From: Patescibacteria group bacterium
GTDB taxonomy: Bacteria; Patescibacteriota; Gracilibacteria; BD1-5; UBA2023
Assembly (NCBI GenBank): GCA_049293675.1
Contig: JBAQBR010000001.1
Span: 38,273-102,272, forward strand
Length of the DNA: 64,000 nt
Direction of reading: 5' to 3'
Part shown: positions 26,595-46,151 of the stretch, in pieces
Layout of the letters: the number at the start of each line of letters is the position of its first letter
Position numbering within the stretch: position 1 is the first letter of the stretch
Program-made: the position numbers and the translations under genes
The notes under the pieces: model-generated
Database searches by the model: none
Told to the model about the DNA's origin: nothing
Seen by the model: only the letters and a program-made list of their open reading frames with translations

Positions 26595-26972
26595 ATGTCT
26601 CAAGTAACTCGGAATGATTTTACATTCACTATCCTCGACGAGATCGAAGCACAATACCACGAACTCGTGGAACTCGTACTCGGAAGTGAGTCTATCGACA
26701 ACAATGAGAAACAATATTGGTTCGACATACTCCCATCTATGACCAATGAACAGATAGATAGACTCTTTAACATCCTCATGACTGAGCGCAAGCAACTCGA
26801 AGAGCTCAATATGAAATACCAAGAAGAGATAAAAACTCTGAATGAGAAGCATCTTATCCAATGGCAGTCACTCCAGACGCAGAAAGCAAAAGAAAAAATC
26901 GCAGAAGCAGAGAAGCAAGATACAGCAAAAGATGAAGCAAAAAATGCACTTGATATGCTGGGTGGAATCTAA
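26595..26972 (+). CDS. Small coiled-coil protein (hypothetical)
   Basis: Internal ATG of track ORF 26511..26972 (MSQVTRNDFTF…), chosen to avoid overlapping the divergent murF start. K/E/Q-rich heptad-like C-terminal half. No TGA. Confidence 0.5.
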   Translation: MSQVTRNDFTFTILDEIEAQYHELVELVLGSESIDNNEKQYWFDILPSMTNEQIDRLFNILMTERKQLEELNMKYQEEIKTLNEKHLIQWQSLQTQKAKEKIAEAEKQDTAKDEAKNALDMLGGI

Positions 26973-27019: not shown

Positions 27020-28912
27020 ATGATCCATACTGATATATTTCACCACACATGAGAGAATACAGGAAAAGTTGTACGCTCTCATAAGCTCCAACCAAGCGAG
27101 TGAGTAACCATATTCTGTATACTCACAGGAGAAAAAGAAAGTATTATCAGTGTTCTTGAGGATCACCTCCTTGAGTCTATATCTGGAATGGAGTGGACTA
27201 CGGACTCCATCAATCCTGATTTTACTTTTATCTCTGAGAATTTTAATCATTTTATTCAGAACATAGACGAAGAAGATCGTGCTTCTTTTGCTGTAGTATT
27301 GGCAGTACTCATAGATGACTATCTTGTGTTTTCTCATATTGGAGATACGAGCATACTTTTGGTTGAAAAAGACTGAAGCATCACGAATCTCTCAAACAAC
27401 GACATCACAAAAAAGGAGTTTCAAGCTATATCCACTGGTGAAGTACTCGAAGGTTCTCATATATATCTCTCGAGTTCTCCACTTGAGAATCGGCTCTCAG
27501 ATGACCTTATACGTGATCTCTCATCTCTGAATTCCGTAGAATGGAAGAATATCATCGGTGACGTATTCCGTAAGGAGATACAAGATACGATTCATGTTGC
27601 ACATATCTCCCATGAAGCAAGTAAAAAGGTTGAGTTCTCATGAAAAAGGAGAAAGCAATTAGATATTCTGAGAACAGGGTCTCAAGATATACTTCAGAAG
27701 CTCAATATACCAACATGGACAGCAAGCATACAAGAAAAGATATACAGTGTTTTTTTTAACAAAAAACAAGAAGTAAAATATGCATTTCTTGCTATGGGAG
27801 TGGTTCTTCTCTTCGGACTATTGTATTTCCTTTTTTCTGCACTTTTTTGAGTTGTGAGCTCACCTGAGAGAGACAGTAAAACGAAGCTCATACAAGCCCA
27901 AGAACTCATAGACAATAGTCAGAAGCTTGTAACCAACCCGACTGCATTCAATAAGACAATAGAAGAAGCAGAAAAGATACTCTTTGAACTCAGGGATAAG
28001 CGCGTCTACATGACAGATACCCAGAGCCTCCTTGGACGTATCGAAGCAATGAAAAAAGAAGTCAATGATATACAGACTATTGATATGACCAAGCTCAATG
28101 CTGTTATGTCTTACACTCCTGAACAGATCTCAGCGCTTGGAGTATTCGAGTACAACAAGAAGCTCAATCTCATAGGGACAGACTCGGCAATTCTCTGATA
28201 TACTCGAGGTGAGGCACTTCCACTCAGTAAAGGTTACCCTACAGGAGAAAAGGCAAAAGCCTTTGACTTTACTGAAGATGGAGAATATTTTATCCTTACT
28301 GAGGGGAATCGACTCCTTGGGAAGAGAGGCAATGATATTGCTTATATCACGAATAATGGAAAGAATGAATGGAGTGAATCACACATAATCAGTACTTTTA
28401 ATGGGAATGTCTATCTTGCAGGATCTGGTTGAGAGAGTGTAACTCGCTATAGACCAGGTATCAACGGTTTTTCTCAAGGAACAACCTACATAGACAATCT
28501 CTGATGAAAGATTATAGACATAGCTATTGATGGTGGTATCTATATCCTCCTTCAGGATGGGAAGATTATACGCTATATATGAGGAACAACATCCACAACC
28601 AAGTCTCTGAGCATCAACAAGGTTCCATGAGAGTACAATATTGGAAGTGAGGATGTGACACAAGTGTTTTCTCAACCAAATCTCTCATATACCTATGTTC
28701 TCAGTGGGAGGAATATATGGATATTTAGCCCTGATTCCAAGCGTTTTCAAGACGTAACAGCATGGAACTACGTAGCTCAACTCGAACTCCAGGGTACAGA
28801 AGAAGTTCGTGGCATCAACATACCTCGCGATGGTCTAGTGTACATCACCACGAACAACCATGTATATGAGCTTCCATTTGAAGTTGCTGATGGAAAGATT
28901 ATTTTACGATAA
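27020..28912 (+). CDS. Single-pass membrane protein: N-terminal PP2C-like segment, TM, C-terminal beta-propeller-like domain (630 aa)
   Basis: Fragments 27188..27376, 27854..28198 and 28655..28912 share a frame and the gaps were checked. The first ATG after the upstream TAA is 27020. …FAVVLAVLIDDYLVFSHIGDTSILLVEKD-G weakly resembles the PP2C/SpoIIE core. TM YAFLAMGVVLLFGLLYFLFSALF. Repeated …G.IY.L..DG.I… strands in the C-terminal half. Confidence 0.65.
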
Positions 28913-28924
28913 CTCCCTTATTCA

Positions 28925-29503
28925 TTGTTCAAGACTGAAGGCATCATCCTCTCTATAGATACAGTTCGAGACAATAATACTCGGGTTATTTTTCTCAGCA
29001 AAGAATACGGAAAGATATCATCTTGGTACAAAAAGAAACAATTTCTTCATGATATAGGGGATATTGTATTCATAACTCTTGAGAGACAAGGTGCTATCAA
29101 TACTATCAAATATACAGAGAGTATCATGTCTCCAAGAGAAGAAGCATGGAGTTATGAGAAGATCTCTACATTTCTAGAGAGTCTTGCCCTCATGAATACA
29201 CTCATTCCTGAGATGTCGCCATATATGAATATATTCAAAGACTACAAGGGACTCCTGGCGCATATGCAAGAATCAACGAGCCTCCATACACACCACTACT
29301 TATTGTTCCAGTTTCGAGTATTGAGAACCCTTTGATATATTGGCTCAGAGAGCTTCGAGAGCTCACCTATTCCCCTCTATATATTCAACAACATACTCAA
29401 GACGCCGCTCACGAAACTCCTCTCAGCCAAAACACTGAAAGATGAAGATGCAAAGAAAATAAAACTCGCAAACCGCGAAGCGGTATATAGAAGTATCCTC
29501 TAG
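28925..29503 (+). CDS. RecO-like DNA repair protein (short form)
   Basis: TTG-start ORF 28925..29335 continues through TGA to TAG 29501-29503. N-terminus MFKTEGIILSIDTVRDNNTRVIFLSKEYGKI resembles the RecO OB-fold start. The rest is weakly conserved, so the call is tentative. Confidence 0.45.
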
Positions 29504-29518: not shown

Positions 29519-30499
29519 ATGACACTATACTATTTCATACTTTTCATACTGTGACTTTGCTTTTGAAGTTTTAGTACAGTACTCATATCTCGATGGTATA
29601 GTGGACAAGGTGGCATCATGATGTGACGCAGCGAGTGTCCCCATTGCCAACATATACTTACCGCACGTGAGCTTGTTCCACTATTCTCATGGATATTCCA
29701 GTGAGGCAAGTGTGCCAATTGTCATACCCGTATACCCGCATATTACCCACTCTCTGAGATATTCATGGGATGATTATTTGTCTGGTCATGATGGATATCC
29801 CTCAGATTCGGCTATACCTGGGAAGATATGATGTGGTGGGTATTTTTATTTTGGACATTCGTAACGGCAATCTATGTGATATACGATATTCGGTATATGG
29901 AGATACCCGACCAGATAGTCGTCCCTGGGATTATCATAACACTTGGACTCATTCTTGGTGGACTTATCTCCGAAGAATATAATGTATTTTTTGATTATTC
30001 ATCATATGATACTTTTCATACTTTTCTAACCGATCATATAGCTTCTGCAATATTTCTCTATTCATTCTTTTTTCTTCAGATACTGATACCATGAGCGATA
30101 TTCCTCTACAAACAAAGACTCTACACAAAAATACTTGAACTCATTCTCAGTTATTTTACGTTTCCTATTACCTTAATTATTGATTTTTTCCGAAGGAGAG
30201 AACATAAGGAGGAACAAAAAGACATAGACATAGAAATACCAACCTGGATAGGATGAGGGGATCTTAGGATAGCATTCTTTATAGGACTCACACTCTGAGG
30301 TATACACTCTATCACAACACTTATCTTTGCATATGTAATCGGGAGTATTGTATGAGTCAGTATGCTCATACATGGTAGATTCCACAAGAGACAAAACTCT
30401 CATGAGATTGCTTTTTGACCCTTTCTGGGTATAGGCTGGATTCTTTCTTTGACATTTTATTCAGAGATATTAGATTATGTAAATATATTTTATCTATAG
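29519..30499 (+). CDS. pilD: Prepilin peptidase (A24 family, PilD-like)
   Basis: Translated by hand with 14 TGA. N-terminal Cys motif CPHCQH…CANCHT. Aspartyl-protease motifs …IG-G-GDLRI (Gly as TGA at 30254-30256) and AF-G-PFLGIG. Polytopic. Ends TAG 30497-30499. Confidence 0.85.
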
Positions 30500-30568
30500 T
30501 GTCAATAAAAATATCTCGACTTATCAGAGAAAAAACCTATAATCAGGAGCATCCTTATACACATACTT

Positions 30569-31102
30569 ATGTCTGAAGAAAATAAAATCAAGGCCCTTCG
30601 AGACCTCATAAATACAGCACAATCATCTATCAATAGTGCCAAAAAGATATTGAACTCACTTTTGTGAGAAGAATGAGCTTCCGACGACTTTCCAATGGAT
30701 ACAACGTGACTCTCTCAATACGAGTCAGACGGTCTTCAGATTATCGAGTGAGTATTTACTGGGGAATGAATGCTCTGAACCGATGGAAATATGTATCCAG
30801 TACCTCAGAACTACGCATCAAAATCACTCCTCGTTCAAGGAAGTAAGCTCAAGGCAACTATCGACCAGAGTGGTCGCATCAAGTATAAGATTATTTCTGA
30901 GATACCATTTACTACACTTGTTGGTATCATCACCAAAAATGGAGAAAAATATCAGATAGCCACCGAACATAAAGCCTACAACGTACTCGTTGCTGCAATC
31001 ACATTTCATAAGTGTGAGATTGGCGACACTGTAAGTATCCGTGTTCCCGAGTGAAAAGACGCGACCTATGCAGTCATAGAATCAATTATACCGAAAAAAT
31101 AA
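30569..31102 (+). CDS. Hypothetical cytoplasmic protein (177 aa)
   Basis: ATG 30569 to TAA 31100-31102 with 7 TGA. N-terminal helix, then …MYPVPQNYASKSLLVQGSKLKATIDQSGRIKYK… suggests an OB/S1-like beta segment. No family assigned. Confidence 0.6.
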
Positions 31103-31124
31103 TTCCTTATCTCCCTTTTCTCCT

Positions 31125-32510
31125 ATGCGAAGTACATCATATAACCGTAGCGCACGACCAAGTTCCAATCTCCCATGGTGATGGATTGGTATAGTATGAG
31201 GCATCATTGCACTTCTGATTATCGTAAGGATTTTTTCATCTTCTGACACAGAAGCCTCTGAACAATATCTCAGTGTTACTCCAGGTGAGCAGAGCTCAGT
31301 ATACATATCTATGACGACTTCTAGCAAGAGTCGCATCACTTCAGAACAAAAACTCTTTGCGACGGATAAGTCTGTCTCCGTAGAGCTCGGGAATGCTATG
31401 GCAAAAAATGAGTTCATGACAATAGATATAGATAAAGGTTCTGAACTCGCATACAAATCTAGTACTGCAAGTGGCAACACCATCAATCTCTCAAAAGGTC
31501 GTAGCTGGTTAAGTGATATAACAAAACCCCTTCAGATAGAGCTCAAGAACTACAACGTAACAGCGCCTGTAGGGAGCACTATCCTTATAGAACAAAATGG
31601 TCCATATAGCAATGTATATGTACTGCAAGGTGTAGCTACTATAGAGACCTCTGTTGGCAACAAGGATATATCTGCTGGATCTATGATCTCACTCTTGAAG
31701 TCAGATCTCATCAATCCGAACACAGATCTCTCGGAATGGATACGTCCAATTGAGTGATCTATTCTTGAATATCCACTTTTTGTACGCAACAATGGTGCAT
31801 CTCTCCTTGATCAAGCTGGCATCAGTGTGAACACTTGAACTGGTAGTACCTCCACTGATGGACAATCTGGTTCACTTATAGAGTCAACAGCATCGAACTA
31901 CATAGAGATTACTGAGCCAAAACCCGGCATCATGACACGAACAAACACAATCACTGTTATGGGAAATCTTCTCTCAAAAGAAGTAAAGAAAGTAACTATC
32001 AACAATGTTGAAGCCGTAGTGAGTCCTGTAAATGAAACATTTGTTCTCCAAAATATAAGTGTAACAACTGAGATATTCGACATAGTATACAAGGCATACG
32101 ATGCAAATAATTCCCTTCTCCAGACTGGAGTCATCAGTATTTTCTGAGCAAAATGAGCAACTCAAGGGAATGGACCACTCGTTCCAGAAACTTTCCCAGT
32201 ATCAGCAAAAGATTTTAAGATATTGACTCCATCAGGAAATCCATACAGTACAACTGATAGGATGGTGCGCGTAGAGTGAACAATTCCAGCTAATACAGTA
32301 GACTATATTCTCGTGAATGACTATCGTCTACAGCAATTCAGGGCCAAGTCGAGTAGTTGGTATTATTTTGCAAATATGGACTACGGTACTATGAAAGATG
32401 GACTCAATCTCTATACTATCAAGTTCTATCGTGCAGACAATACTCTCCTCTACTCTCAGCCATTTACCATCATAAAAGAATCAAAAAATGCTACAGTTTC
32501 AGGTGAATAA
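31125..32510 (+). CDS. N-terminally anchored extracytoplasmic protein (461 aa, hypothetical)
   Basis: Fragments 31311..31757, 31932..32147 and 32313..32510 are colinear. Start ATG 31125. TM WGWIGIVGGIIALLIIV. Beta-rich extracellular part. Confidence 0.7.
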
Positions 32511-33135
32511 AAATACATCCGGGAAACGATGAGCAACGATGATCGAACTCATGGCCATGCTTGCTATTGTAGGCCTTGGACTTTGATCTATGTTTTCTGT
32601 GATTACTTCTGGTATATACTTTGCCAAAGACACCGAAGATACTATACGAGCTATCAACTTGGCACGAGAAGGCATAGAGTGAGTTACCAATATCCGTAAT
32701 ACCAATTGGCTACGATTCTCTTCAGATAGACAGAATTGCTGGAATTCAAGTAACTATGATGCCTTTTGTATATGAAACGCTGTCTCATGAGACCGTCTGG
32801 GGGCATGACGATATACGCTCTACACAACCAATGGACTCTGGTATCTCTCATGAAGTACTGTTATAGACCCTGATTCTAACTGGACAGGATATGCAAGTGC
32901 ATATAGAGCCATTCAAGATAATACAAGTTTTTTTAATCAGACTGGATCAGCAACTGTTCCATGCAATACAGCAGTACAGAAAAATTGTGTATCACTTTTT
33001 ACTCGAGAGATCGTACTCACTGTTCCTGCGTATACAGGAACAATCTACGTCAAAAGCATTGTCCGCTGGAACACAAAACAACGGCACAAAGTAGAGCTAG
33101 AAACAACTCTCACTAACTGGAAGTCAAAATTCTAA
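32488..33135 (+). CDS. Type IV pilin / pseudopilin-like protein
   Basis: Class III signal: MLQFQVNKNTSGKR-G|ATMIELMAMLAIVGLG, with Glu at +5 after the predicted cleavage Gly. That Gly is TGA at 32530-32532. Alternative GTG start at 32503. Overlaps the upstream gene end. Four Cys in the globular part. Ends TAA 33133-33135. Confidence 0.7.
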
Positions 33136-33192
33136 ATATTTGCCATAAATAAAATATTATGATAAAGTAGGTTCAATTCCTACTTTTTTTAT

Positions 33193-34704
33193 ATGTTTTA
33201 TTCTCATATCCGACAGCACTGGCTCGAATATGCACTCATGGGTGTATGGCTCTGTAATTGTATCATCGCGAGTGTGATAGCTATTCGTGAGGTCTGGGTG
33301 CCATCTATGAGTGCTGGAGCTGATAGTTACGCACATATCCGTAGTGCTCCTTTTGATGGTACAGTTATGCCTATCACATATATTCCTGACTGGACAAAAA
33401 CCACAAATCAAGATAAGTCAAAGCAATTCGAAGAGATATCTATATCAGACTATATTCCCCTCCCCACCTATGATGCGACAACACTCATCAAGGACCTACA
33501 AAATACAAGTAAAATATCTACAATCCTCCACTATACATATACAGTTCCTTATATGGGGAGTTATAATTTTAACTATAAGGAACATGATGGGAGCCATCTT
33601 GGGATAGATATACGCGCGCCTATAGGTACTCCTGTACTCTCGATTGCCAATGGTGTCGTTGTACGAACTGTTGAGGCAGACTCTACGGGGAACAAGTTCG
33701 TAGTAATCAGACATGACGAGGTACCAGTGAATGGTAAAAAAGTCTCACTCTATTCGGGATACCTCCACCTATCACAGATAACTGCAACAGAGTGAACTCG
33801 TATCAAAAAATGAGAAATGCTTGGACGAGTAGGTATGACAGGAATAACTACAACTCCACATCTTCACTTTCAGATAGATACCGCTGAAGCTCCGTTTCAT
33901 CCATATTGGCCGTTCACAAGTGCTGATTCGCGCAATGCAGGACTTGGATTCTTTGAATCAGTAAATGCAGGACTTGGAAAGGAAAATGCATTAAAGTACA
34001 CTATTCATCCAATGAATTTTATCAATGCAAATCTCGGATGAGCAGTATCACAAAATACCTTCGCAAGTGCACCACAACAGCCTACAACAAGCACCATAAT
34101 CAGTGAGAACATCACTGAAGAACAATCCATCAGAGAAAGAGAGATAATGCTCGGATGATATGTAAGCTCAGGAATCAAGACATGTGAGAAAAAACGATTC
34201 TCTGATGTTGGGGAAAAGACAACACTCGGAAAACTCCTCTATCCCCTCATAGACAATAAGTGTCTCTTCCAAAAGGATGGCAAATTCAACACAAAAGAAT
34301 CTATCACAAGACGTGAGGCAATAATCGCTATCATGGATTATTATGATATTGATCCAGCAAATTGAACAAGTCACTTCCTCGATGTATCTATCAGCGATGA
34401 GCTCCAGTGATATGCTGTAGTACTCTATCGTCGTGGGATTGTTGACGGGAACTATCTCTCTCCAGACAAGATACTGACAAAGGCGGAAGCAATACGCCTC
34501 ATCGTAAAAATAGGTAACATACCGAAGAATCCTGGACAAATTCGTATCTATCCAGATGTAGCAACTATGCATCCAGATTTTAGTTCGATTCAAGATTATG
34601 GATTTGCTACAAGGGTTCGTGGATGACGATTTTATCCTGATATGGTACTCAATCGTGGGACATTCGTACAGATTCTCGCGAGTCTCGCAAAAGTCACAAA
34701 ATAA
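33193..34704 (+). CDS. M23 peptidase fused to three SLH domains
   Basis: Frame checked from 33193 to TAA 34702-34704. N-terminal TM. M23 motifs HLGIDIRAPIGTPV and TTPHLHFQI. Three C-terminal repeats have SLH hallmarks: FSDV…ITRREA, FLDV…GIVDG…LTKAEA, YPDV…FYPDMVLNRGTF. Confidence 0.85.
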
Positions 34705-34768
34705 AGTGGATTTTCTCTCCTGATTCAATACACTGAACTAAAAAATATTCCTTGCCCATGACCGAACT

Positions 34769-36163
34769 ATGTCACCCAAAAAAATCATCTTTTTCATCAT
34801 AGTATGAGTTATCACTATAACACTGATTATAGGGATTTTCCTACTCCAAAAAAAGACCACAAAAGAAACGATTATCCCATGAAATATCAGAGTATGGATA
34901 TCTGAGGGCAATACTCAGTCGTATGATTCGCTTATTGAGTGATTCAAGCTCTACGCACCAGAATATGCAGACTCAACTATCACATTCGAGAAAAAAACTA
35001 CAGATCCAATTCGTTATAGAATCCTCCTCCTCTCAACTATGTCGGAAGGAACTGGCCCTGATATATTCATGGTAGGAGCAGGAACTGATGTTGTTCTCGA
35101 ATCCAAGATTGAACCAATACCAGAGAGTGTTATCAACTTTTCTAACTTTGAAAAAGAGTACGACGATGTCTTCCTTCCTCTCATTGTATCGAGTGGATCG
35201 AAGGATACATTTACTCGCTACCTTATGGGTGTTCCTCTCTGATTTGAGACGCTTGGGATTTTTTATAACAAAAATCTCGTTCGAGAAGTTCCAATAACTT
35301 GGAATGCGCTCGATGTACTCTACAGCAATGGCATATCTCCTGAGGTATTCCCAGCCAATCTCTGACTTGGGCCTCGTTATACGCAGAATGCTGCTGATAT
35401 TGTTGGATTATTCTATGGAAGGGCAGGCATGTACGATGCAACGAATCTGAGAGGAGGAGATGGAGAGTGACTTGCCTCATATCTCAGTTACAAGGATATC
35501 CGAATCGCATCAGCATGATCAGATGATGCCTTTGCTCCTATTGTTACGCTCGATGGGAAAAAAGAAGAAATGGACACAGAAAGTCTCACAACCCTAGATC
35601 TCTTCATGCAAGGAGACATCTGAATGATTTTTGGATATCCAAGCCTTGTTACTGAACTCGAAAAAAGTGATAAACGTGTAGGATTCAAAAGTAAGGCAGG
35701 AAATATCCTCACGGAGAGGATTCCTGCAGATTCACCTACAGAAGGAAGAGAGAATGCAGCAAAGTATAACTTCTTCGCACTCTCTAGAGCTACAGAAAAC
35801 CCTGCAACAGCAGTAAAATTCCTGGAGTATCTCCTGACTCCTGATGCACAAAAAAGATTCCTCCAGAATAATCCTTATCTCATTTCAGCTCAACGTTCAT
35901 TTTGGCCAGCACAGGAGAGTTCAGTATTGTCCAATATACTCAATAGAGCAACACTCGGAGCCTTTATCCCAGAGATTGACGAAGAACTCTTTGTATTTTC
36001 TTATGGACTCAAGGCAGAATTCGGGAATTTTCTCTCAGAATATATTGACAGAAATGATAATATAGATATTAATAAGATATCAGAACTGATTTCACACAAC
36101 ATATCATGCAGTATCGATACCTATAGTGGAAAAGAAACTCGTGCTGATTGTGAGAATAAATAA
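34769..36163 (+). CDS. Extracellular solute-binding-protein-like protein (orphan, no adjacent permease)
   Basis: First ATG after an in-frame TAA, and the gaps were checked. N-terminal TM anchor. …IRVWISEGNTQSYDSLIEGFK…GTGPDIFMVGAG… is typical of family-1 SBPs. Ends TAA 36161-36163. Confidence 0.6.
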
Positions 36164-36219
36164 TCAAAAATTGCTTTTTTCCTTTTGATATGATACGATT
36201 GACTGTATATACCTTATCT

Positions 36220-39200
36220 ATGCGTACACTCTACTCACTTCTCATCCTCGTTATAGGATTCATCGGATTCTTTACCATCGCAGATGGTGTGACTTTCGCA
36301 GCAGACAAATGTTGGTTCCCCTTTAGTGACGGAACATGCTGAACTACAGAGCCACCATACTGTGCTGATGGAAAGTGTACACTTCAAGGCGGACTCAATG
36401 CCGCGGGAACAGCTGTGGACTGACAAGTAACAAATCTACCTATTTCAGTGTTCGTCGTCGATATTGTTCAGTACCTCCTCACATTCGTAACCCTGATTGC
36501 TGTCATATATGTTATCTATGCATGATTCCAGGTGATGACGGGAGCATGAGACGAAGAGAAAAGCAAAAAAGCAAAAAATATCATCCTCTACGTTGTAGTT
36601 GGTATCGTCATCATGTGGCTTGCATATGCCCTTGTGAACTGGGTAGTCACCGCAGTGTGAAGAACAGTCTCAACGGATTCTTGAGGAAAATACACATGGT
36701 CACTCGTTCCAGAAGTATCGGCAGCTTATAGTGAAAGTGATGTCGATACTTTTCGAGAGTACCAGAACAAACTTCGGATAGCGATACAGGATCTCGAGAG
36801 TGAACTCAAGATCAATAAGTCAGTAAGTACTGCTAATATTCAGAACATCAAAAACCTAGTACAGGGAGCATACGATCGCCTTCCTGATTTTGGTGATGCA
36901 GGTACACAGAACGACACCATGAAGCGCGGAGTAGACAGAGATCTTGATATAGCCATGAAAAATCCTGGATCTACGAGCCAAGTTGGAAATGCTATCTCTA
37001 GTGTTTCTGCTTTTATCTCTAGTGCCAAGATCGAGACCGTTGAATGAAGTATCAATGCTTCACCGGGAGAGTGAAATGCTCCAGTTACAGTATCGTTCCA
37101 AGCAACAGGAATCAAAGATCCTTCTGGTGCTACTCCAGATAATATGAGTTATATCTGGTGGATGCGAGAAAACGGTGGCGTACGTCGTGAACTCGGAAGA
37201 GGAAAATCCCTTGTCTATACATTTTCCCAAGAGTGAAGCTATACAGTGTTTCTCGATGTTATCTCTGGAAGTCGTAATAGTAAAAAAAAGATTGATGTCC
37301 TCCCACTGAGTACATCAAAGACTATCGATGTAAAACCACGCCTTGGAGAAATAGTACTCCTGGTTAATGGGGTCAACGCAAGCAATCTCCAAACACTGAA
37401 AATCAATCCAACCATCGGAAAAATGTGAGTCATCCTCGATGCTACAGCATCACGAGCCACAGGGGGCAATATCACAGAAACCACATGGGATTTTGCTAAT
37501 AACAACACTATTACGTATCGTTGAGTACCTATTGTTGAACGACAGATTTTTGCAAATTCATGAGACTACAATATTCGTCTCACGCTCAAGACGAACAATG
37601 GACAGACCTTTACCAAGGAGCTCCGCCTCATCGTACGCAATCCAGCTGCCGTAATCCAATGAGAAAAACTTACAGGAAATATCGGTGATGACATGTATTT
37701 TTCTTCGATATCATACTTTACAAATGCAAACAACGTAGAGTACTCTTGGCAGATACAAGATGACAATAACAAAAAAATAGTTAACAACCTCCCTGGAAGT
37801 ACACTCAAGTACCGATTCGATACAATAGGAACATATATAGTCACCCTCACTGCTCGTAGTCCAAATGGTGAAGTAGATACTGATTCACGACAGATAACTA
37901 TCGAGTCTCGATCACCAGTAGTCAACCTCGACAATCCGAAGCCACTCTCAACTGAGAGTCCCAATGTCTTGGAATTTGACGCGTCAAAAAGTTATGATCC
38001 TGACACAATGGGTCGTAAATGACTCACCTATACATGGAGAATAGATGGAGAAAAAATCAATCTCGATAATGTAGCAAACAATGGCGCAAAATGAACTCTT
38101 GTATTTAATTCAGTATGACCTCATACCGTATCACTTACGGTAGCAAATGCATACGGAAAAGTCACTACTGTAGAGCGCCAATTCGAAGTGCAATCGATTC
38201 TTTCAGCCAATCTCCTCATCACTCCACGCGTTGCTCCTCTTGGAACTATTATTAATTTTATAGCCCAATCAGAGAATGCAGACTTCTTTGAGTGGAATAT
38301 GGGAGACGGCTCCCCTATCAAGACAGGAAACAAGAAAATCATCCAACATATATACCAGAAAACTGGAGTATACGAGGTAACTCTTACTGTATCGAGCGCA
38401 AAGTGAAGTGAATCCAATCAGATCAAGAGACGTGTATATGTCACTGATACGAATAGCCCATTTTCTATGATCAGTGTGAACAATGCTTCCAGCACTGCAT
38501 ACTATGATTCTGAGGCATGTGGAGGAAGCGGGGCAACTGTCATCAATAGGTCAGAAGTAACCAATTTCGATGGTTCAAAATCTATCAACATAGATGGTGG
38601 AACCGCTGATCTTACGTATACATGGAGTTATTTTGGAAAAGTAAAAACTACATCTACCCTCTCAGAGAAGCTCTCAGAAATCTGATGCTATCCTGTCAAG
38701 CTTACCGTACGTAGCAACAAAAATGGTGCAACTCATGCATCAACAGAATATATCTCAATCAAGAATATCCCCCCTGAGCTCACGAGTATATCTACAAGTA
38801 TCGACTCTAGTAAGCAAGACAGTCAAAAAGTACTTGTTCGTGTAAATGCAAATGGAGCAATAGATCCTGACGGAGTGATCACTTCATATATCTGGTATTA
38901 TACAACCGAATCCGATCGAGAACCACAGAACATCCAGATTACACAGAATCCAGAGATTACTTTTGTTCTTCCAAACATCACAGAGAAGTATTATTTTGGT
39001 GTGATCCTCGAAGATAATGACGGTGCAAAGGCAAATAGCATGAACGACGGAAGTGAGCAAGTTCCACTGATTCTCGACAATCAGAACGGGAATATCTATA
39101 TGCCACTTATTAGCCTCACGATGCCCAAGAATGCAGTTCTCGTAGGAGAAAATGTGTTTATGTCTGTCGATGCTAAAACAATAGTCTGAACTGTTGTTAC

Positions 39201-41430
39201 GAAGAATGCGGAATATGCCTGGGATTTTGATGGAGATGGTCGCTTCGACGAGCGCTCAACCAATCCATCAGTGAACCATACGTTCAAGAACTCTGGTACA
39301 TACCAGATAAAAGTACGTGTCACTCATAATGGTGTATCAAATACGAAGTATGCAACTATCTATGTAAAAAATCCACTGAAGGCCAATGCTGTCGGTTATA
39401 CACTCGCTGACGGAAGTATCTACTTCATGAATACTAGTGAATGACTCTATGATAGAGCTATATGGACGGTGAATGGAGAACAGACAGAATCACCATACAC
39501 ATTCACGATTCCTCGAGCACAACTCAGTACGCTCTCAGGAGAAGATATTGGAACACTCAGAGTCTCCAATGGTGAGACAGATACATCGAGTTTCACCCTG
39601 TCACGCAAGGATCTCATGCAGATCGCATCATGAACAGGTATTGCATATCAGACATCACCACAAGCCATAGATGATACGATCCATATCAAGTGACAGTCAG
39701 ATAGACTTATTATCTCACTTCTAGGCAACACTACTGCAACATCCTATGCTATCGATGTAGATACTCGTATTGATAGTGATCTTGATGGTATTCCAGACAA
39801 TGATATCGACAACAAGAATCACACTTCCTATACAGATGGTAGCACCTATGTTATCAGTGATTTTGTAGAGTCTCGAATTAGAGAGCGTACCGTGAAGGTA
39901 ACTCTTCTTTCCAATGGGACCATGATAGGAACCAAAGATATTCGAGTTATTCTTGATTTTCTTCCTGAGGCACAGTCAGGGTCTGGAGAAGACTTCTTGC
40001 TTGGTGCATCTGGTTCTATGAGTACATTCGATAGAGAAAAACTCGAAGAGCTTGCAACAATGATACGATCTACAGAGAGTACAGATCGTGTTATCCTCAT
40101 GCAAGAGTACAATACCATGATAGAGAACTGGGGTGACTCATTCTCAAAGGCAAAGTCTCTGATAGATATACAAGAACTCGTCAATACAAGCACTCTCACA
40201 GAAGATAAAAAAATTGCTATCAGTAAAATCATCGACGCACTCCTTGTCGGAGATTCCGCGAGTATCGACGAAGTGACTCTTGCAACCAAGCTCATCCAAG
40301 ATCTCATACCTGCAACGAGTGCCAACCGAGAGACTATTATCGAGAAACTCAACGCTATCTCTTCTCATCCAAGCGATATCGCCAAGAATCGAGACCTCTG
40401 AAAGGAGATACTAGAACTCATCAAAAATGATCCAACCATCGAAGATAAGTACAAGATACACATCAAGAATCAACTCCTCATCATCATCAACGGTGGTCAG
40501 GCAAGTGTCCCAGCTGATGCGGTAGAAGAATCTGGCTCTACTAGCACTATCCTAGGATTTATATCAGGAGTCGTGTGGGTATTCCTCTATATACTCTGAG
40601 GTATACTTCTTGTTCTCCTTATTTGATATGTATTCTACCTTATTGGACGAAAAAATGATGATATTGGATTTCAGGACTTTCTCATTGATTCAGTGTTTCA
40701 TGCAAGAAAATCACCAAATACTACAGAATCAGGAACAACCGACACATCGAATATCATCGTAACACAGGCTCCTGTAGTCGCAGAGAAGTCTCCCATCATA
40801 CAGGTAGACCCTCTTGCGAGCTATACACCTCCTGTGATTGTAACAGCACCCCTCGAGGCTACCCATAACTGACTCGAATCAGCTCCGACTGAGACAGAAT
40901 CATCTACCAATATCCCTGCATGGCTCCAGATACCAAAAACTGAAACAGTATCTGATACTAAAACCGAAACTCCAGGAGTAGAACCAATAGTTACAGAGGA
41001 AGTATCTACACCTACTTGGCTCCAGGTAGACTCTAACGATGGGGATACATCTTCAGTAATAGTCCCCGAGACATTAGAGGACACCCCTGCTGCCCCAGCA
41101 AGTGAATCTACTGTCCCTGATTGGCTCCAAGCAACAGAAGAGGCTATCGCACCTACAGATACTCCTCCAACAGAATCAATAGTCACAGAAGAGGTATCAT
41201 CTCCTGAGACAACCAGAGAAGAGATAACAACTTCCAATGATCTCCCTGATTGGCTCGTAGACTCATTGAAGTCTTCCGAAGAAACCAAGGAAAGTGATAC
41301 ATGAACGACGACACCAACAGAAAAAACTGAAACCCAGCCAGCCAAGAAAAAGGCAACAAAGACAAAAAAGAGTACTACAGCAAAAGATACACCTCCTGCC
41401 TCTGGAGATATCCCTGAATGGCTCAAGTAA
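36220..41430 (+). CDS. Giant surface protein: VirB2/TrbC-like two-TM module + PKD-domain array + C-terminal TM and PxWL-repeat tail (1,736 aa)
   Basis: Every codon from 36220 to TAA 41428-41430 was checked: no TAA/TAG, many TGA. An alternative ATG is at 36190. N-terminus: signal, Cys-rich loop, then IVQYLLTFVTLIAVIYVIYAGFQVMTGAGDEEKSKKAKNIILYVVVGIVIMWLAYALVNWV. At least 8 PKD-like units (for example FEWNMGDGSP…GVYEVTLTV, YAWDFDGDGRFD…GTYQIKVRV) lie at ~37100-39400. TM at ~40555-40650. The acidic tail carries five P-x-W-L motifs. Confidence 0.85.
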
Positions 41431-41457
41431 AAAAAGACGGATAATTCCGTCTTTTTT
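41431..41457 (+). terminator. Rho-independent terminator
   Basis: Stem AAAGACGGA (41433-41441) / TCCGTCTTT (41446-41454), loop TAAT, then a T-run. Confidence 0.65.
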
Positions 41458-41523
41458 GTTTTCTGATGTTTTATTGACTTAGGGAGTGACTTTTGATATA
41501 CTCAAGGTATCTTCATATTTTCT

Positions 41524-43845
41524 ATGACACAAGAAAAACCACAATCCGAAGAGAAGACTTCTCTCCTCTCAGATATCATCAAAGCATCTCAGGCATCAGG
41601 CAACGAACAGGCTGTACCTCCAGTCACAGAGGTAAGTTCACCATCGAACAATCCAGCTGAGATACCAGTATCTTCAGGAAGCAATACTCCACCACTTCCC
41701 CCTACGCCCAAGAAGCCAAGAGAACCACTTCCACCAGGTACAATATTGAAAGCAATTGGTGCACTTTTTTTTACGGGAATTATATTTTTTGCGAGTTTTC
41801 TTGCGTATATAGTATTCAATCCTGGTGAAGCCCAATTCTTCATCACAATGTTCGGTATAGATACCAAGGATGTTGCCACACTTCTTCGAAAGTTCATCAA
41901 TGGAAGTTTTGGTATTATCATGCTTGTATTCTCTATCCTCTGGATTATCACACTCTTCCGAGCTATCTGGACGCCTCGAGAACAAAAAAGAAAAAAGATA
42001 CTCGCATGGATGACAGCCGCTCTCATTGGTATACTCCTTTTTTCTATACTCACATTCTGGATATACCTCTTCAAAAAAATCGGAGAAATTGTATGGGATG
42101 GTGGAGTTATCGGTGTCTATGATAACGTACTCTATGGCAATCCAATATCAACGGGTGACTCTGCTATCAGGAGCACTAAGAACATGATATGACCTATCCA
42201 GCTACGATACGATATCCGTGGCAATGCTCGATCTTATGAAGCCAATGGTATCACAGTAGAGCGCTACGAGATCAACTTCGATGGTGCAAGTTGTGGAGAT
42301 GGGAGGAGTATCGTCTCGGGTACCAATCCAAAAGAAGAACAATGAATTGTTTGTGATTTTAATCAAATAAGGAACTACAATATACGCTGATCTTACTTTG
42401 CTACCGACGTCAACTGAGAGAGCAAAGAGATACCTATAGAGCTCGATGCTGTAGAGATACGCGGACTCGTAGATGTCAGAGAGCAGAAAAACAGTCTTGG
42501 AAGAGATATTATAACGCTCGATGCCAGCAAGCTAACACTCCTTGGTGATCCTCGTTGGGTCTATGAGAGCACCGGAAAAGAAGAGAAAAATCCAACCATC
42601 ACCCTAGAACCAAGTGAGACTCCTACTTTTATATTTTTAAAAGTATTCTGAGAGTCTCCTGATAGGATATTCCTCGTACAGAAGCGTGGAGCCTGACAGT
42701 GAGATGAGACAATAGAAGCTGTCCAGTCAACGCTCGATGGACGAGAATACACCATGACGCTCACAGGAATCACGGCAGATAGCAATACTATACTTGGAAT
42801 CGAGTGGACAGTGAATGATGGTATCGTCATATGCCGATGATCGAGAGATGTCTGTCAGTACAACTTCTGAAATTATGGTCAGCAGAGTGTCAATGCTCGT
42901 ATCGCCTTTGCTGATAGGAGCTACCGCGATATCAAAAAAGATATCAACGTAGAGAAGCCACTCCAGCTCATCAGACATGTCATCGTAACGGGAAGTGATG
43001 GCAAGAGACTCAATCCTGACTCAAGTTATGACGGAGTACTCAATAGCTATCTCATCGATAGTATCATCCCCCCTGACAAGATTACTGTTGATGCGCGTGA
43101 TGTGGTACCAGAGAATCCAGGATACGAGCTCAAGGAGGTTCGTTGGGTTCTTGCTGATGGACGCAACAGTATAGAGAAGATTGGGGACAGAGTAACTTTT
43201 GATATCCTCAATACCTACCGATACACTATCGTGGGAACATATACTTTTGAGAAAAATATTCCTGGAAGTGCTACAGAGATAAAGAAAGCTACTGATAACA
43301 TTACGGTTGATGTGGAGCGAAAGATACTCATTCCACGACTTTCTGTCATCCAGAATAGTGACTATGTTCCTGCAAGTATAACAGTTGACGCATCTCAGTC
43401 ATGGTCAGAGAATAACGAGATTATCAAGTTCATCTACAACTTTGGTGAAGGTCGAGCTGATGCTGTCGGTGATGCTATACAGACATACACATATACCACT
43501 CCAGGAGAAAAAGAAATAATCCTTACGATTATCGATGACTCAGGAGAAAAAGCTCAAATCAAAAAGACACTCGTACTCAAAGAATCTCCGAGAACACTTG
43601 GATTTATACCGAGTATATCACCTGGTATTATCTGAGTTCCAGTGGACTTCTCAGTGACAGATGAGAGTGGACAGGTTGAGATGTATACATGGAGCTTCTG
43701 AGACAATACTCCAACTCAGCGAGGCATATCAGTGACACATGTATTCGCCAAGGGATGAGAGTACCAGGTCACACTCACGGCAACCTATGCTGATGGTACC
43801 CAACGACAAGCAGTATCTACATATCTCGTTAATTCTGGTGAATAA
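41524..43845 (+). CDS. Polytopic membrane protein with extracellular PKD-like domains (773 aa)
   Basis: Fragments 41524..42192 and 43102..43635 are colinear and lines 42181-43800 were checked. Pro-rich N-terminus, 4 TM helices, Ig/PKD-like repeats, and a terminal PKD signature YTWSF-G-DNTP…HVFAKG-G-EYQVTLTATYADG. Ends TAA 43843-43845. Confidence 0.8.
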
Positions 43846-43872
43846 AAAAAGACCCAATCTTGGGTCTTTTTT
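43845..43872. terminator. Bidirectional rho-independent terminator
   Basis: Stem AAGACCCA (43849-43856) / TGGGTCTT (43861-43868), loop ATCT, flanked by an A-run and a T-run. The pyrH stop is at 43880-43882. Confidence 0.65.
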
Positions 43873-43879
43873 GAAGGGA

Positions 43880-46077: not shown

Positions 46078-46085
46078 ATTATTCT

Positions 46086-46133: not shown

Positions 46134-46151
46134 TTTTAATAACATTTTATA

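What the first reader, a model, noticed from the sequence alone, without database searches (positions are those of the whole stretch)
29519..43845. 14-kb same-strand cell-surface locus: pilus processing, wall hydrolase, orphan SBP and PKD giants
Eight consecutive plus-strand genes with short spacers:
1. Prepilin peptidase.
2. A 177-aa unknown.
3. An anchored 461-aa unknown.
4. A pilin-like protein.
5. An M23 peptidase with three SLH domains.
6. An orphan solute-binding-like protein with no permease or ATPase nearby.
7. A 1,736-aa VirB2-like/PKD protein.
8. A 773-aa PKD membrane protein.
Only the last two are followed by clear terminators (41431-41457, 43845-43872). No canonical pilus motor (PilB/PilT/PilC) lies in the locus. 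The combination of filament subunit processing, a cell-wall-cutting enzyme anchored through SLH, and Ig-like adhesive arrays is what one would expect of an attachment or cell-envelope-breaching apparatus in an epibiont. As an ensemble it is not a described system.
Basis: inference. Interest (0 to 1): 0.75.

Follow-up and report, generated by a model that had tools for sequence, protein, structure and literature searches.

The report
Conserved Gracilibacteria cell-envelope gene neighbourhood
The eight surface-related genes are real and their order is conserved across dozens of uncultured Gracilibacteria, but they look like several separately transcribed modules (pilin processing, a wall-cutting enzyme, and a membrane-anchored giant adhesin set) rather than one proven new machine.

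Summary
The window uses genetic code 25 (UGA = Gly).

Gene order is strongly conserved. 25 of 26 informative species-level Gracilibacteria MAG loci are collinear. The conserved co-directional run starts three genes earlier (u2a, u2, RecO-like) and abuts a MurF-like gene and a second M23 peptidase.

It is not one operon. Terminators conserved after g4 and g7, and promoters conserved before g2 and g8, define at least three transcription units. In deeper relatives the locus splits into modules: u2–RecO–PilD, g2–g3–g4 and g6–g7–g8, with g5 optional. The modules are sometimes inverted but still adjacent, and sometimes apart.

- g2 belongs to a CPR-wide OB-fold family that elsewhere sits next to dnaX.
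- g3 is a membrane-anchored FecR-like plus Ig-like protein.
- g7's VirB2-like hairpin is a separate gene in eight relatives, and its cytoplasmic tail carries 4–5 conserved PDWLK motifs.

No pilus motor or VirB4 was found nearby in any locus examined. The "single attachment/breaching apparatus" reading is only partly supported. This is a lineage-specific variant of known surface-protein kinds, of moderate interest.

The parts
23128..25104 (-). Second M23 peptidase (658 aa). It has an EnvC-like coiled-coil N-terminus and an extra C-terminal domain.
   Evidence: Pfam Peptidase_M23 5e-24. NCBIfam MepM/DipM/EnvC-type matches. Present next to the cluster in all 21 loci with enough upstream flank.
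25193..26470 (-). MurF-like Mur ligase, transcribed divergently from the cluster.
   Evidence: TIGR01143 murF 8e-47, the best hit among the Mur ligases. Adjacent in most close relatives. Also directly upstream of g5 in L041/42 and directly downstream of g8 in L051/52.
26595..26972 (+). u2a: a small, acidic, helical, highly conserved unknown protein (~125 aa) and the first gene of the co-directional run.
   Evidence: 62-89% identity in 21 loci. No Pfam or NCBIfam family. pI 4.6.
27020..28912 (+). u2: a 630-aa bitopic unknown protein. It has a weak PP2C-like cytoplasmic N-terminus, one strong TM segment at residues 252-282, and a beta-rich C-terminal part.
   Evidence: Pfam PP2C_2 0.0024, sub-threshold. 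Hydrophobicity. Conserved in order in 22 loci and in L054. Nothing in the PDB.
28925..29503 (+). u1: a RecO-like protein (192 aa), 15 bp upstream of PilD.
   Evidence: TIGR00613 RecO 4e-5 over residues 3-138, and Pfam RecO_C 1e-3, both sub-threshold. The median u1-to-g1 gap in relatives is 4 bp and no terminator follows u1.
29519..30499 (+). g1: prepilin peptidase (PilD type, with an N-terminal Zn-finger domain).
   Evidence: Pfam A24_N_bact 1e-24 and Peptidase_A24 4e-6. CPHC/CANC motifs, DIRYMEIPD and GGGD present.
30516..30543 (+). Promoter-like site before g2 (TCGACT-16-TATAAT).
   Evidence: 10 of 12 consensus matches. An equivalent site occurs in the g1-g2 spacer of 21 of 25 relatives.
30569..31102 (+). 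g2: a cytoplasmic protein with a long N-terminal helix and two OB-fold barrels. It is the most conserved gene of the locus.
   Evidence: 60-83% identity. AF2 model pLDDT 74. Weak fold matches to RNase R/II cold-shock-domain pairs and to the Mpa coiled-coil plus double OB. Family of 1,065 representative clusters, found next to dnaX elsewhere.
31125..32510 (+). g3: a single-pass membrane protein with an extracellular FecR-like beta domain and two Ig/Fn3-like domains.
   Evidence: AF2 model pLDDT 76.6. Foldseek hits to 4m0n and 6ovk anti-sigma C-terminal domains at E 3e-6 to 7e-6, and to Fn3/Ig modules. The family (72 clusters) was found only in Gracilibacteria-type contigs.
32488..33135 (+). g4: a type IV pilin-like protein, overlapping the end of g3 by 23 nt.
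   Evidence: KRG|ATMIELMAMLAIVG, with Gly(-1) and Glu(+5) invariant in orthologues. Weak PilV N-terminal match. The same module heads a 1,767-aa Fibrinogen_C giant in L054.
33164..33186 (+).
   Evidence: 8-bp stem followed by a T-run. A hairpin plus T-run occurs in 22 of 25 orthologous g4-g5 spacers.
33193..34704 (+). g5: a membrane-anchored M23 (LytM-type) endopeptidase with C-terminal SLH-like repeats.
   Evidence: Pfam M23 1e-22. HLGID and HLH zinc motifs. PDB matches to zoocin A, ShyA, LytM and lysostaphin. SLH in 10 of 11 orthologue C-termini. Absent from L043, L045-52 and L054.
34769..36163 (+). g6: a membrane-anchored, MalE-type solute-binding-protein fold with no transporter partner.
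   Evidence: Pfam SBP_bac_8 6e-14 and SBP_bac_1 2e-11. Weak MalE match. N-terminal TM segment without a lipobox Cys. Followed directly by g7 in every g8-anchored locus with enough upstream flank, except L048/L050 (3-kb insert) and L053, which lacks it.
36190..36699 (+). g7 N-terminal module: signal peptide, a 4-Cys segment, and a VirB2/TrbC-like TM hairpin.
   Evidence: Scanned alone: T4SS_pilin 37.0 bits (cut-off 26.6) and TrbC 29.9 bits (cut-off 27.9). It is a separate 144-173-aa ORF in 8 relatives.
36190..41430 (+). g7: a 1,746-aa giant. About 1,290 aa are extracellular, with 5-6 PKD domains, followed by a last TM segment at residues 1450-1487 and a cytoplasmic tail.
   Evidence: Pfam PKD_4 3e-49. 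TM map. Orthologues are 44-70% identical.
40651..41427 (+). g7 cytoplasmic tail with five P-x-W-L-[QVK] motifs, at nt 40915, 41011, 41116, 41245 and 41413.
   Evidence: Chance expectation is about 0.003 per tail. All 18 full-length orthologues have 4-5 PDWLK-type motifs in otherwise variable sequence.
41430..41457 (+). Intrinsic terminator after g7.
   Evidence: 12-bp stem followed by a T-run. Conserved in 16 of 18 relatives.
41474..41502 (+). Promoter-like site before g8 (TTGACT-17-TATACT, with an extended TG).
   Evidence: 10 of 12 consensus matches. A TTGAC-N17-TATACT site occurs in 16 of 18 relatives.
41524..43845 (+). g8: a Pro-rich cytoplasmic N-terminus, three conserved TM helices, and about 590 aa outside the membrane ending in 2 PKD domains.
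   Evidence: Pfam PKD_4 1e-23. TM map. Family of 89 clusters, all about 770 aa.
43846..43873 (+). Intrinsic terminator after g8.
   Evidence: AAAAAAGACCCA-ATCT-TGGGTCTTTTTT, read directly from the sequence.

Best explanation
The locus is a conserved, lineage-specific cell-envelope gene neighbourhood of Gracilibacteria. It is built from separately transcribed and separately evolving modules. It is not a single dedicated machine.

Module A (u2a-u2-RecO-like-PilD) supplies the prepilin peptidase.

Module B (g2-g3-g4) encodes a PilD-processed, minor-type pilin (g4). Its translationally coupled partner is g3, a bitopic FecR/Ig-like membrane protein. Together they most likely form an accessory or tip part of type IV filaments, which are assembled by a motor encoded elsewhere. 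g2 is a cytoplasmic OB-fold passenger or partner drawn from a CPR-wide family linked to replication genes.

Module C (g5-g6-g7, then g8) builds a membrane-anchored surface array:
- The VirB2-like hairpin and g8's three conserved TM helices hold the PKD-rich ectodomains of g7 and g8 in the membrane.
- The transporter-less SBP (g6) acts as a ligand-binding partner.
- The SLH-tethered M23 endopeptidase (g5), where present, remodels the organism's own peptidoglycan around these bulky structures.
- The PDWLK repeats in g7's tail dock an unidentified cytoplasmic partner.

Shown here: gene content, domain identities, conservation, transcription signals, the fusion/fission event, and the tail motif.

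Inferred, not shown: physical complexes, ligand binding, adhesion, and any role in host contact.
For: - Domain identities.
- Collinearity in 25 of 26 informative species-level loci.
- Conserved terminators after g4 (22 of 25) and g7 (16 of 18), none after u2a, u2, u1, g1, g2 or g5, and conserved promoters before g2 (21 of 25) and g8 (16 of 18).
- Module behaviour in deeper relatives: g6-g7-g8 adjacent and in order in all but one of the loci that carry g8 with enough upstream flank, down to about 30% identity. g2-g3-g4 stays intact but is inverted (L045-47, L054), fused to g6 without g5 (L043), or found elsewhere (L041/42, L020/L053)..
- g3-g4 overlap is conserved (median -32 nt).
- The g4 prepilin motif is invariant, and the same module heads a Fibrinogen_C giant in L054, as in known modular pilins; PMC8179133.
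- The VirB2-like module is a separate gene in 8 relatives and fused in 12.
- PDWLK motifs are conserved in 18 of 18 tails.
- g2-family members sit next to dnaX in other CPR.
- Literature describes type IV pili, giant PKD-type surface proteins and VirB2-like pilins as general CPR themes, but not this cluster: PMC8080830, PMC11452946, bioRxiv 10.1101/2025.01.22.634366.
Against: - There is no expression, interaction or localisation data for any of these proteins.
- g4's pilin status rests on the signal motif. The HMM hits are sub-threshold and its globular part matches nothing solved.
- Modules A/B and C stay adjacent after an inversion in very divergent genomes. That could mean a tighter functional link than "neighbourhood" implies.
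- The MurF-like gene recurs next to module C in three arrangements, which hints at a wall-synthesis link that this model does not explain.
- The promoter calls before g5, g6 and g7 rest on conserved non-consensus motifs seen by eye. Only 6-8 of 25 loci pass the 9-of-12 consensus test.
Confidence: 0.5

Rival explanations
1. One reading: all eight products (plus the upstream genes) form one integrated host-attachment or envelope-breaching apparatus of an epibiont. PilD matures g4. g3/g4 and the VirB2-like/PKD proteins form the contact structure. The M23-SLH enzyme cuts the wall, and the SBP senses the host.
For: - Gene order is conserved in 25 of 26 informative loci.
- Modules A+B remain next to module C even after inversion in genomes only about 30% identical (L045-47; L054).
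- All products except g2 are membrane or surface proteins.
- CPR epibionts are known to need type IV pili and VirB2-like genes (PMC8080830; bioRxiv 10.1101/2025.01.22.634366).
Against: - At least three transcription units are separated by conserved terminators.
- g5 is absent in many lineages that keep g6-g8.
- Module B is separated from module C in L041/42 and L020/L053.
- The g2 family is CPR-wide and linked to dnaX.
- RecO-like and MurF-like genes are equally conserved neighbours.
- No ATPase or motor was seen in any annotated locus.
- One local inversion would keep the modules adjacent without any selection.
Confidence: 0.2
2. Modules A+B are a competence-type DNA-uptake and processing unit. 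PilD matures a Com-like pseudopilin (g4), with g3 as its membrane partner. Inside the cell, the OB-fold protein g2 and the RecO-like protein handle incoming single-stranded DNA. Module C is merely a neighbour.
For: - The RecO-like gene is co-transcribed with PilD (gaps of 4-15 bp, no terminator).
- g2 is predicted to have tandem OB folds.
- g2-family genes sit next to dnaX/dnaB elsewhere and often carry long acidic tails that resemble SSB tails.
- DprA and RadA are encoded in the same window.
- The literature proposes pilus-mediated DNA uptake in these lineages (PMC8080830, PMC11452946).
Against: - No ComEC, ComEA or ComF lies in the window or in the annotated relatives.
- g2 is acidic (pI 5.5) and lacks the acidic tail in Gracilibacteria.
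- The OB-fold matches are weak (TM about 0.3).
- The RecO match is below threshold.
- The g4 module is used as a carrier for an adhesin-type lectin domain in L054, which points to adhesion.
Confidence: 0.12
3. The region is a housekeeping cell-wall growth and division neighbourhood: a MurF-like ligase, two M23 endopeptidases, and envelope-spanning scaffold proteins (g6-g8) that organise the organism's own peptidoglycan or S-layer. It has no specific role in host contact. Alternatively, the conservation simply reflects slow genome rearrangement in this clade.
For: - The MurF-like gene is adjacent to module C in three different arrangements.
- The second, EnvC-like M23 gene is conserved upstream in 21 of 21 loci.
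- SLH domains tether proteins to the cell's own wall polymers (established knowledge).
- MurG lies in the same window.
Against: - Synteny breaks immediately upstream of the second M23 gene in about half of the same genomes, while the 17-kb block stays intact. So the conservation is more than background.
- PKD arrays, the SBP fold and a prepilin are not typical wall-synthesis components.
- The g3, g4 and g8 families appear restricted to Gracilibacteria.
Confidence: 0.15

Closest known systems
Type IV pilus minor-pilin / modular-pilin loci with a prepilin peptidase (e.g. the Streptococcus sanguinis pil locus with PilB/PilC modular pilins, PMC8179133; Pseudomonas fimU-pilVWXY1E, from my own knowledge)
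   Same: An A24 prepilin peptidase, plus a pilin with a class III signal peptide (Gly at -1, Glu at +5). The g4-type pilin module serves as a carrier for a large adhesin module in a relative (L054). The pilin gene is coupled to an accessory membrane-protein gene.
   Different: No assembly ATPase, platform protein, PilM/N/O or retraction ATPase was found in the window or within about 10 kb in any locus examined. g4's globular domain matches no solved pilin. The partner g3 (FecR-like plus Ig) is not a known pilus component.
VirB2-like 'T4SS pilin' genes and arrays of Patescibacteria/CPR (bioRxiv 10.1101/2025.01.22.634366)
   Same: g7's N-terminal module, and the stand-alone ORFs in 8 relatives, pass the Pfam cut-off for T4SS_pilin. 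The window module and one stand-alone ORF also pass TrbC. Signal peptide followed by a two-helix hairpin with a charged loop.
   Different: The module is fused to, or sits immediately upstream of, a ~1,600-aa PKD giant that has its own C-terminal TM and cytoplasmic tail. No VirB4, VirB6 or coupling protein is nearby, apart from a single PrgI-like gene in one locus. It occurs as one copy, not an array.
Accessory set of Gram-positive conjugative T4SSs, with a LytM/M23-containing wall hydrolase (PrgK type) and large Ig-like surface adhesins (PrgB type) (from my own knowledge)
   Same: A membrane-anchored M23 wall hydrolase is encoded beside large surface proteins with Ig-like repeats and a VirB2-family protein. 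The plausible logic is a local opening in the wall for a bulky surface structure.
   Different: There are no ATPases, channel components or relaxase. The hydrolase carries SLH repeats and is dispensable in many lineages. Homology is limited to generic domains.
SLH-anchored cell-wall hydrolases and S-layer-associated proteins of monoderm bacteria
   Same: A catalytic wall-hydrolase domain followed by C-terminal SLH-type repeats. A second SLH+PKD protein is encoded in the same window at 55879-57162.
   Different: Only one of the three repeats is recognised by the SLH model. Whether these bacteria make the pyruvylated wall polymer that SLH domains bind is unknown.
Orphan or co-opted solute-binding proteins that partner with membrane sensors (e.g. 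ChvE-VirA, LuxP-LuxQ) (from my own knowledge)
   Same: An SBP fold with no cognate permease or ATPase. It is invariably encoded beside specific membrane proteins.
   Different: There is no sensor kinase domain in g7 or g8. The ligand is unknown. Similarity to MalE-type binders is weak.

Membership tests
Type IV pilus / type IV filament system | Prepilin peptidase of family A24 with its two catalytic Asp motifs | tested here: met
   g1: A24_N_bact 1e-24 and Peptidase_A24 4e-6. DIRYMEIPD and GGGD motifs, plus CxxC...CxxC.
Type IV pilus / type IV filament system | Pilin with a class III signal peptide (Gly at -1, Glu at +5, hydrophobic alpha1-N) | tested here: met
   g4 has KRG|ATMIELMAMLAIVG, and Gly(-1)/Glu(+5) are invariant in 11 aligned orthologues. 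Caveat: the HMM support is sub-threshold (N_methyl 12.3 bits against 21.2; PilV 2e-4), and there is no solved relative.
Type IV pilus / type IV filament system | Assembly ATPase (PilB/GspE) and platform protein (PilC/GspF) encoded with the pilins | tested here: not met
   None among the window proteins scanned. None among the Pfam-annotated genes of the related loci. Whether they lie elsewhere in the genome could not be tested.
Type IV secretion system (VirB/D4, CPR MPF-FATA-like) | VirB2/TrbC-type pilin | tested here: met
   g7 residues 1-156 score T4SS_pilin 37.0 bits (cut-off 26.6) and TrbC 29.9 bits (cut-off 27.9). The stand-alone orthologues score 28-36 bits.
Type IV secretion system (VirB/D4, CPR MPF-FATA-like) | VirB4 ATPase and channel components (VirB3/6/8) in the locus | tested here: not met
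   No VirB4-type ATPase appears among the annotated genes of the window or related loci. The only such component is a single PrgI-family gene in L043.
ABC importer (SBP-dependent) | Solute-binding-protein fold | tested here: met
   g6: SBP_bac_8 6e-14 and SBP_bac_1 2e-11.
ABC importer (SBP-dependent) | Cognate permease and ATPase genes adjacent | tested here: not met
   g6 is followed by g7 in every locus that carries it; in L048/L050 a 3-kb insert intervenes. No importer-type permease or ATPase lies in the window; the only ABC proteins are an ABC-F protein and a fused ABC exporter identified by eye.
M23/LytM zinc endopeptidase (active enzyme, not a degenerate activator) | HxxxD and HxH zinc-binding/catalytic motifs | tested here: met
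   g5: HLGID at residue 135 and HLH at residue 223. Pfam 1e-22. PDB matches to zoocin A, ShyA, LytM and lysostaphin.
SLH-anchored wall proteins | SLH domains (typically three in tandem) | tested here: inconclusive
   One repeat is detected: 25.6 bits for the C-terminal region scanned alone, and 10 of 11 orthologues match. The first and third repeats are recognisable only by eye. The Sap SLH structure matches at only E 0.33, and the profile search finds nothing.
SLH-anchored wall proteins | Pyruvylated secondary wall polymer (CsaB) in the organism | not tested
   This needs the whole genome. No CsaB query was available.
FecR-type anti-sigma regulators | FecR-like periplasmic beta domain | tested here: met
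   g3 model residues 48-191 match 4m0n and 6ovk at E 3e-6 to 7e-6, rmsd 2.0-3.4 A.
FecR-type anti-sigma regulators | Cytoplasmic N-terminal anti-sigma domain | tested here: not met
   Only about 17 residues precede the TM helix. g3 is therefore not filed as an anti-sigma factor.
OB-fold nucleic-acid-binding proteins (SSB/cold-shock type), considered for g2 | OB-fold barrels | tested here: inconclusive
   The AF2 model (pLDDT 74) shows two small barrels. Foldseek matches are weak: RNase R E 2e-4, TM about 0.3. There is no sequence-level match in the PDB. Nucleic-acid binding cannot be tested with these tools.

The most novel reading that the evidence does not exclude
g6, the VirB2-like hairpin, the PKD giant g7 and g8 form a previously undescribed, ATPase-independent, envelope-spanning contact organelle specific to Gracilibacteria. 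It is physically coupled to a PilD-processed g4/g3 filament base. Its state is relayed into the cell through the PDWLK repeats of the g7 tail. In other words, a new kind of host-interaction machine assembled from borrowed T4P, T4SS and SBP parts.
Probability: 0.12. Interest if true: 0.8.

Novelty: new variant of a known kind. Interest (0 to 1): 0.5.

Why it matters
Gracilibacteria are uncultured or barely cultured, recoded, host-dependent bacteria, and how they contact their hosts is unknown. This analysis turns a vague "surface locus" into defined targets that can be tested:

- A g6-g7-g8 module kept adjacent in nearly every relative examined. Its natural fusion/fission ties a VirB2-like hairpin to a PKD giant.
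- A repeated cytoplasmic docking motif (PDWLK) in the g7 tail.
- A pilin/FecR-Ig pair (g4/g3).
- A CPR-wide OB-fold family linked to dnaX.

If these modules mediate attachment, they would be markers and handles for studying episymbiosis in this lineage. If they do not, the work prevents a conserved neighbourhood from being over-read as a new machine.

Tried and rejected
- Table 11 ORF calling was useless because the genome is recoded.
I used database proteins 96-97% identical to g3 and g2 as the lead sequences instead.
- Rfam found no RNA in the conserved element upstream of u2. That element turned out to be a small protein gene, u2a.
- PDB sequence or profile searches gave nothing significant for u2, the g5 SLH region, g4 or g2.
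- Pfam found no domain in the acidic extensions of distant g2-family members.
- I looked for a consistent extra partner (motor, VirB4, permease) in the flanks of the divergent loci. Only variable housekeeping genes and one PrgI turned up.
- The metaproteome supplement of PMC11452946 lists SLH, PKD and pilin proteins as detected. It gives no sequences, so the entries could not be mapped to these orthologues.
- A mobile-element or prophage origin was considered and dropped. Base composition is uniform, the flanks are housekeeping genes, and the same chromosomal context recurs in dozens of species.
- Filing g3 as an anti-sigma factor was rejected because it has no cytoplasmic domain.
- Filing the locus as a T4P or T4SS system was rejected because the ATPases are absent.

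Full report
**Observation**

Under the standard bacterial code the region is a mosaic of short ORFs. With TAA and TAG as the only stops, long ORFs fill the window. The genome therefore reads UGA as a sense codon, as in code 25 of Gracilibacteria and Absconditabacteria.

Spacers between them run from -23 to 93 bp. Pfam confirms the domain calls:
- g1: a prepilin peptidase (A24_N_bact 1e-24, Peptidase_A24).
- g5: Peptidase_M23 (1e-22).
- g6: SBP_bac_8 and SBP_bac_1.
- g7: an N-terminal T4SS_pilin/TrbC module followed by 5-6 PKD domains.
- g8: two PKD domains.

g4 carries a textbook class III prepilin motif (KRG|ATMIE). It gets only sub-threshold HMM support.

g5 keeps the HxxxD and HxH zinc motifs and matches solved LytM-type enzymes. 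Its SLH region is below threshold in the full-length scan. It passes when the C-terminal region is scanned alone, and 10 of 11 orthologues match.

No PilB, PilT or PilC match was found among the window proteins I scanned. The remaining ORFs were read by eye as housekeeping genes.

The co-directional run starts three genes earlier:
- u2a, a small and very conserved acidic protein (26595-26972).
- u2, a 630-aa bitopic unknown.
- u1, a RecO-like gene that ends 15 bp before PilD.

Upstream, on the other strand, lie a MurF-like ligase and a second, EnvC-like M23 peptidase. A third intrinsic terminator follows g4 at 33164-33186.

**The unknowns**

g3 defines a family of about 460 aa that I found only in Gracilibacteria-type contigs. 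Its AlphaFold model (pLDDT 76.6) has an N-terminal TM helix, a FecR-like beta domain, and two Ig/Fn3-like sandwiches. The best fold matches are the C-terminal domains of anti-sigma regulators, at rmsd 2-3 A. It has no cytoplasmic anti-sigma domain, so it is not an anti-sigma factor.

g2 is the most conserved gene of the locus (60-83% identity). It is predicted to be cytoplasmic, with a long helix followed by two OB-type barrels. Fold similarity is weak, to the cold-shock-domain pairs of RNase II/R and to the Mpa coiled-coil plus double OB.

An exhaustive profile search shows that g2 belongs to a large family: 1,065 representative clusters, often with long acidic low-complexity extensions, and no Pfam family. 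In four of four informative contigs from other CPR lineages, the g2-like gene sits directly upstream of dnaX. In two of those, dnaB follows. g2 is therefore not specific to a surface system.

**Conservation**

Using the g3 family as anchor, I fetched 27 species-representative Gracilibacteria MAG loci. 25 of the 26 informative ones keep this order:

M23b(-), MurF-like(-) | u2a, u2, RecO-like, g1, g2, g3, g4, g5, g6, g7, g8 (+)

Four of these lack the MurF-like gene at this position. This holds even where g3 identity falls to 32-39%. Just upstream of the second M23 gene, synteny breaks in roughly half of the same genomes. The 17-kb block is therefore better conserved than its flank.

A second set of 17 metagenomic loci anchored on g8, plus two contig look-ups, reaches relatives with only 29-39% identity. 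One pair (L041/L042) reads well under the standard code. In these deeper relatives the block resolves into modules:
- g6-g7-g8 is adjacent and in order in every locus with enough flank, with two exceptions. L048/L050 have a 3-kb insert between g6 and g7. L053 has g8 alone.
- g5 is present in some loci (L036, L041/42) and absent in many (L043, L045-52, L054).
- g2-g3-g4 stays intact but moves. It is collinear in the window clade, fused directly to g6 in L043, inverted and convergent with g8 in L045-47, and absent from the neighbourhood in L041/42.
- In L054 the whole u2-RecO-PilD-g2-g3-g4 block is inverted but still lies beside g6-g7-g8.
- In the outlier L020/L053, only g2-g3-g4 stay together. 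A lone g8-like gene lies about 8 kb away, next to a Mur-ligase-family gene.
- The MurF-like gene appears next to module C in three different arrangements.

**Transcription signals**

I compared the orthologous spacers across the loci:

| Feature | Junction | Loci with the feature |
|---|---|---|
| Hairpin plus T-run | after g4 | 22 of 25 |
| Hairpin plus T-run | after g7 | 16 of 18 |
| Hairpin plus T-run | after u2a, u2, u1, g1, g2, g5 | 0 |
| Hairpin plus T-run | after g6 | 3 of 25 |
| Consensus-like promoter | g1-g2 spacer | 21 of 25 |
| Consensus-like promoter | g7-g8 spacer | 16 of 18 |

Non-consensus motifs are also conserved before g5, g6 and g7. The junctions u2a-u2-u1-g1 and g2-g3-g4 are tight, with median gaps of 26, 6, 4, 18 and -32 nt.

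The simplest reading is three units bounded by terminators:
1. u2a to g1, running on into g2-g4, with an internal promoter before g2.
2. g5-g6-g7.
3. g8.

This is inferred from conserved sequence signals. It has not been measured.

**Features of module C**

g7 has a signal peptide, a four-Cys segment, and a VirB2-like two-helix hairpin. About 1,290 extracellular residues follow, then a last TM helix and a 260-aa cytoplasmic tail.

In eight relatives the VirB2-like part is a separate ORF of 144-173 aa directly upstream of the giant, which then has its own signal peptide. In the window and eleven other loci the two are fused. The stand-alone ORFs pass Pfam's T4SS_pilin cut-off. This natural fusion/fission is good evidence that the hairpin protein and the giant work together.

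The tail carries five P-x-W-L-[QVK] motifs, against a chance expectation of about 0.003. All 18 full-length orthologues have 4-5 PDWLK-type copies in otherwise variable sequence, and the last copy is at the C-terminus. That is the signature of a repeated short docking motif for an unknown cytoplasmic partner.

g8 has a Pro-rich cytoplasmic N-terminus. Its three TM helices are its most conserved part. About 590 residues lie outside the membrane.

g6 is anchored by an uncleaved TM helix and never has a transporter partner in any locus examined.

**Features of module B**

In the 11 aligned sequences, g4 keeps Gly(-1) and Glu(+5), along with a conserved alpha-beta core with two Cys pairs.

In L054 a paralogous g4-type prepilin module heads a 1,767-aa protein that ends in a fibrinogen-C lectin-like domain. 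This is a modular pilin of the kind shown to be widespread and probably tip-located (PMC8179133). It supports reading g4 as a filament-incorporated minor-type pilin, with g3 as its membrane partner.

**Mechanism**

The best-supported account (about 0.5) is a conserved envelope neighbourhood made of modules, as set out in the Best explanation section:
- PilD matures g4.
- g4 and g3 contribute to type IV filaments built by a motor encoded elsewhere.
- g6, g7 and g8 form a membrane-anchored PKD surface array with an SBP-type binder.
- g5, where present, remodels the cell's own wall.

None of the physical interactions, ligands or host roles is shown.

Rival explanations:
It is favoured by the persistence of A/B next to C after inversion. 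Conserved terminators, the optional g5, module separation and the housekeeping-type members argue against it.
- A competence-type reading of modules A+B (about 0.12).
- A wall-growth housekeeping reading, prompted by the recurrent MurF-like and M23 neighbours (about 0.15).

**Comparison with known systems and novelty**

Each part belongs to a known kind: A24 peptidase, type IV pilin, LytM/M23 hydrolase with SLH, SBP fold, VirB2-like CPR pilin, PKD adhesin. The defining ATPases of T4P and T4SS, and the permease and ATPase of an ABC importer, were looked for and not found. The locus is therefore not a member of those systems.

General CPR literature already describes type IV pili, giant PKD-type surface proteins and VirB2-like pilins (PMC8080830, PMC11452946, bioRxiv 10.1101/2025.01.22.634366). 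In the searches I ran, I found no description of this cluster, of the g6-g7-g8 module, of the VirB2-PKD fusion/fission, or of the PDWLK tail. I rate it a new variant of a known kind, with interest about 0.5. It is a solid, lineage-defining conserved neighbourhood with testable new features, but the evidence does not show a new machine.

Noticed in passing
whole window; database proteins P0073 etc.: The genome uses UGA as a sense codon (code 25). Many public database copies of these proteins were translated with code 4, so they show Trp where the conserved residue is Gly (for example EWVFTGEW against EGVFTGEG in the g2 family).
   Followed up: partly
window 10846-16011 (-) and 16035-17393 (-): A 1,721-aa repeat-rich giant with no Pfam hit, plus a 452-aa partner. 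The pair also lies next to the cluster in other genomes in different positions: upstream of the second M23 gene in L017-L023, and downstream of g8 in L041, where the partner is 38% identical (E 1e-109). It may be another module travelling with this neighbourhood.
   Followed up: partly
L028-L035 (other CPR lineages): g2-family genes lie directly upstream of dnaX, and in two cases dnaB follows. Many carry long acidic low-complexity tails that end in a short hydrophobic tip (...ELEI, ...ELDI), which resembles SSB C-terminal tails. This is an uncharacterised CPR-wide family that may be linked to replication.
   Followed up: partly
L054 12853-18156 (-): A 1,767-aa modular type IV pilin. It has a g4-like prepilin module (HGG|NSIIEVMVV...) fused to about 1,500 aa that end in a Fibrinogen_C lectin-like domain. 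It is encoded right after the g4 orthologue.
   Followed up: partly
window 33140-33186: In the window and its closest relatives (L001, L002, L016, L025), the hairpin after g4 lies downstream of the -35/-10-like elements that precede g5. In other species the hairpin comes first. The hairpin may double as a leader attenuator for g5 in this sub-clade.
   Followed up: no
window 55879-57162 (+): A second SLH+PKD surface protein (427 aa; SLH 1e-6, PKD 4e-9). SLH-type anchoring therefore seems to be used repeatedly in this organism.
   Followed up: no
window 44645-45250 (-), 45415-47357 (+): An HTH_17 protein with a C-terminal TM helix, containing no UGA codons, follows g8 on the opposite strand. It is conserved there in the close relative L036, and about 7 kb downstream in L041. 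An OmpR-type response regulator and histidine kinase pair lies next to it.
   Followed up: partly
window 48448-48892 (-), 8956-9027 (-): A tmRNA gene (75.9 bits) and one tRNA gene, found by Rfam.
   Followed up: no
L041/L042: These contigs carry MurF-like-g5-g6-g7-g8 but read almost equally well under the standard code (coding density 0.90 against 0.93). The module is therefore not confined to recoded lineages.
   Followed up: partly
window 23128-25104 (-): The upstream M23 peptidase has an EnvC-like coiled-coil N-terminus, intact HxxxD/HxH motifs, and an extra C-terminal domain of about 190 aa with no family match. It is conserved next to the cluster in 21 of 21 loci.
   Followed up: partly
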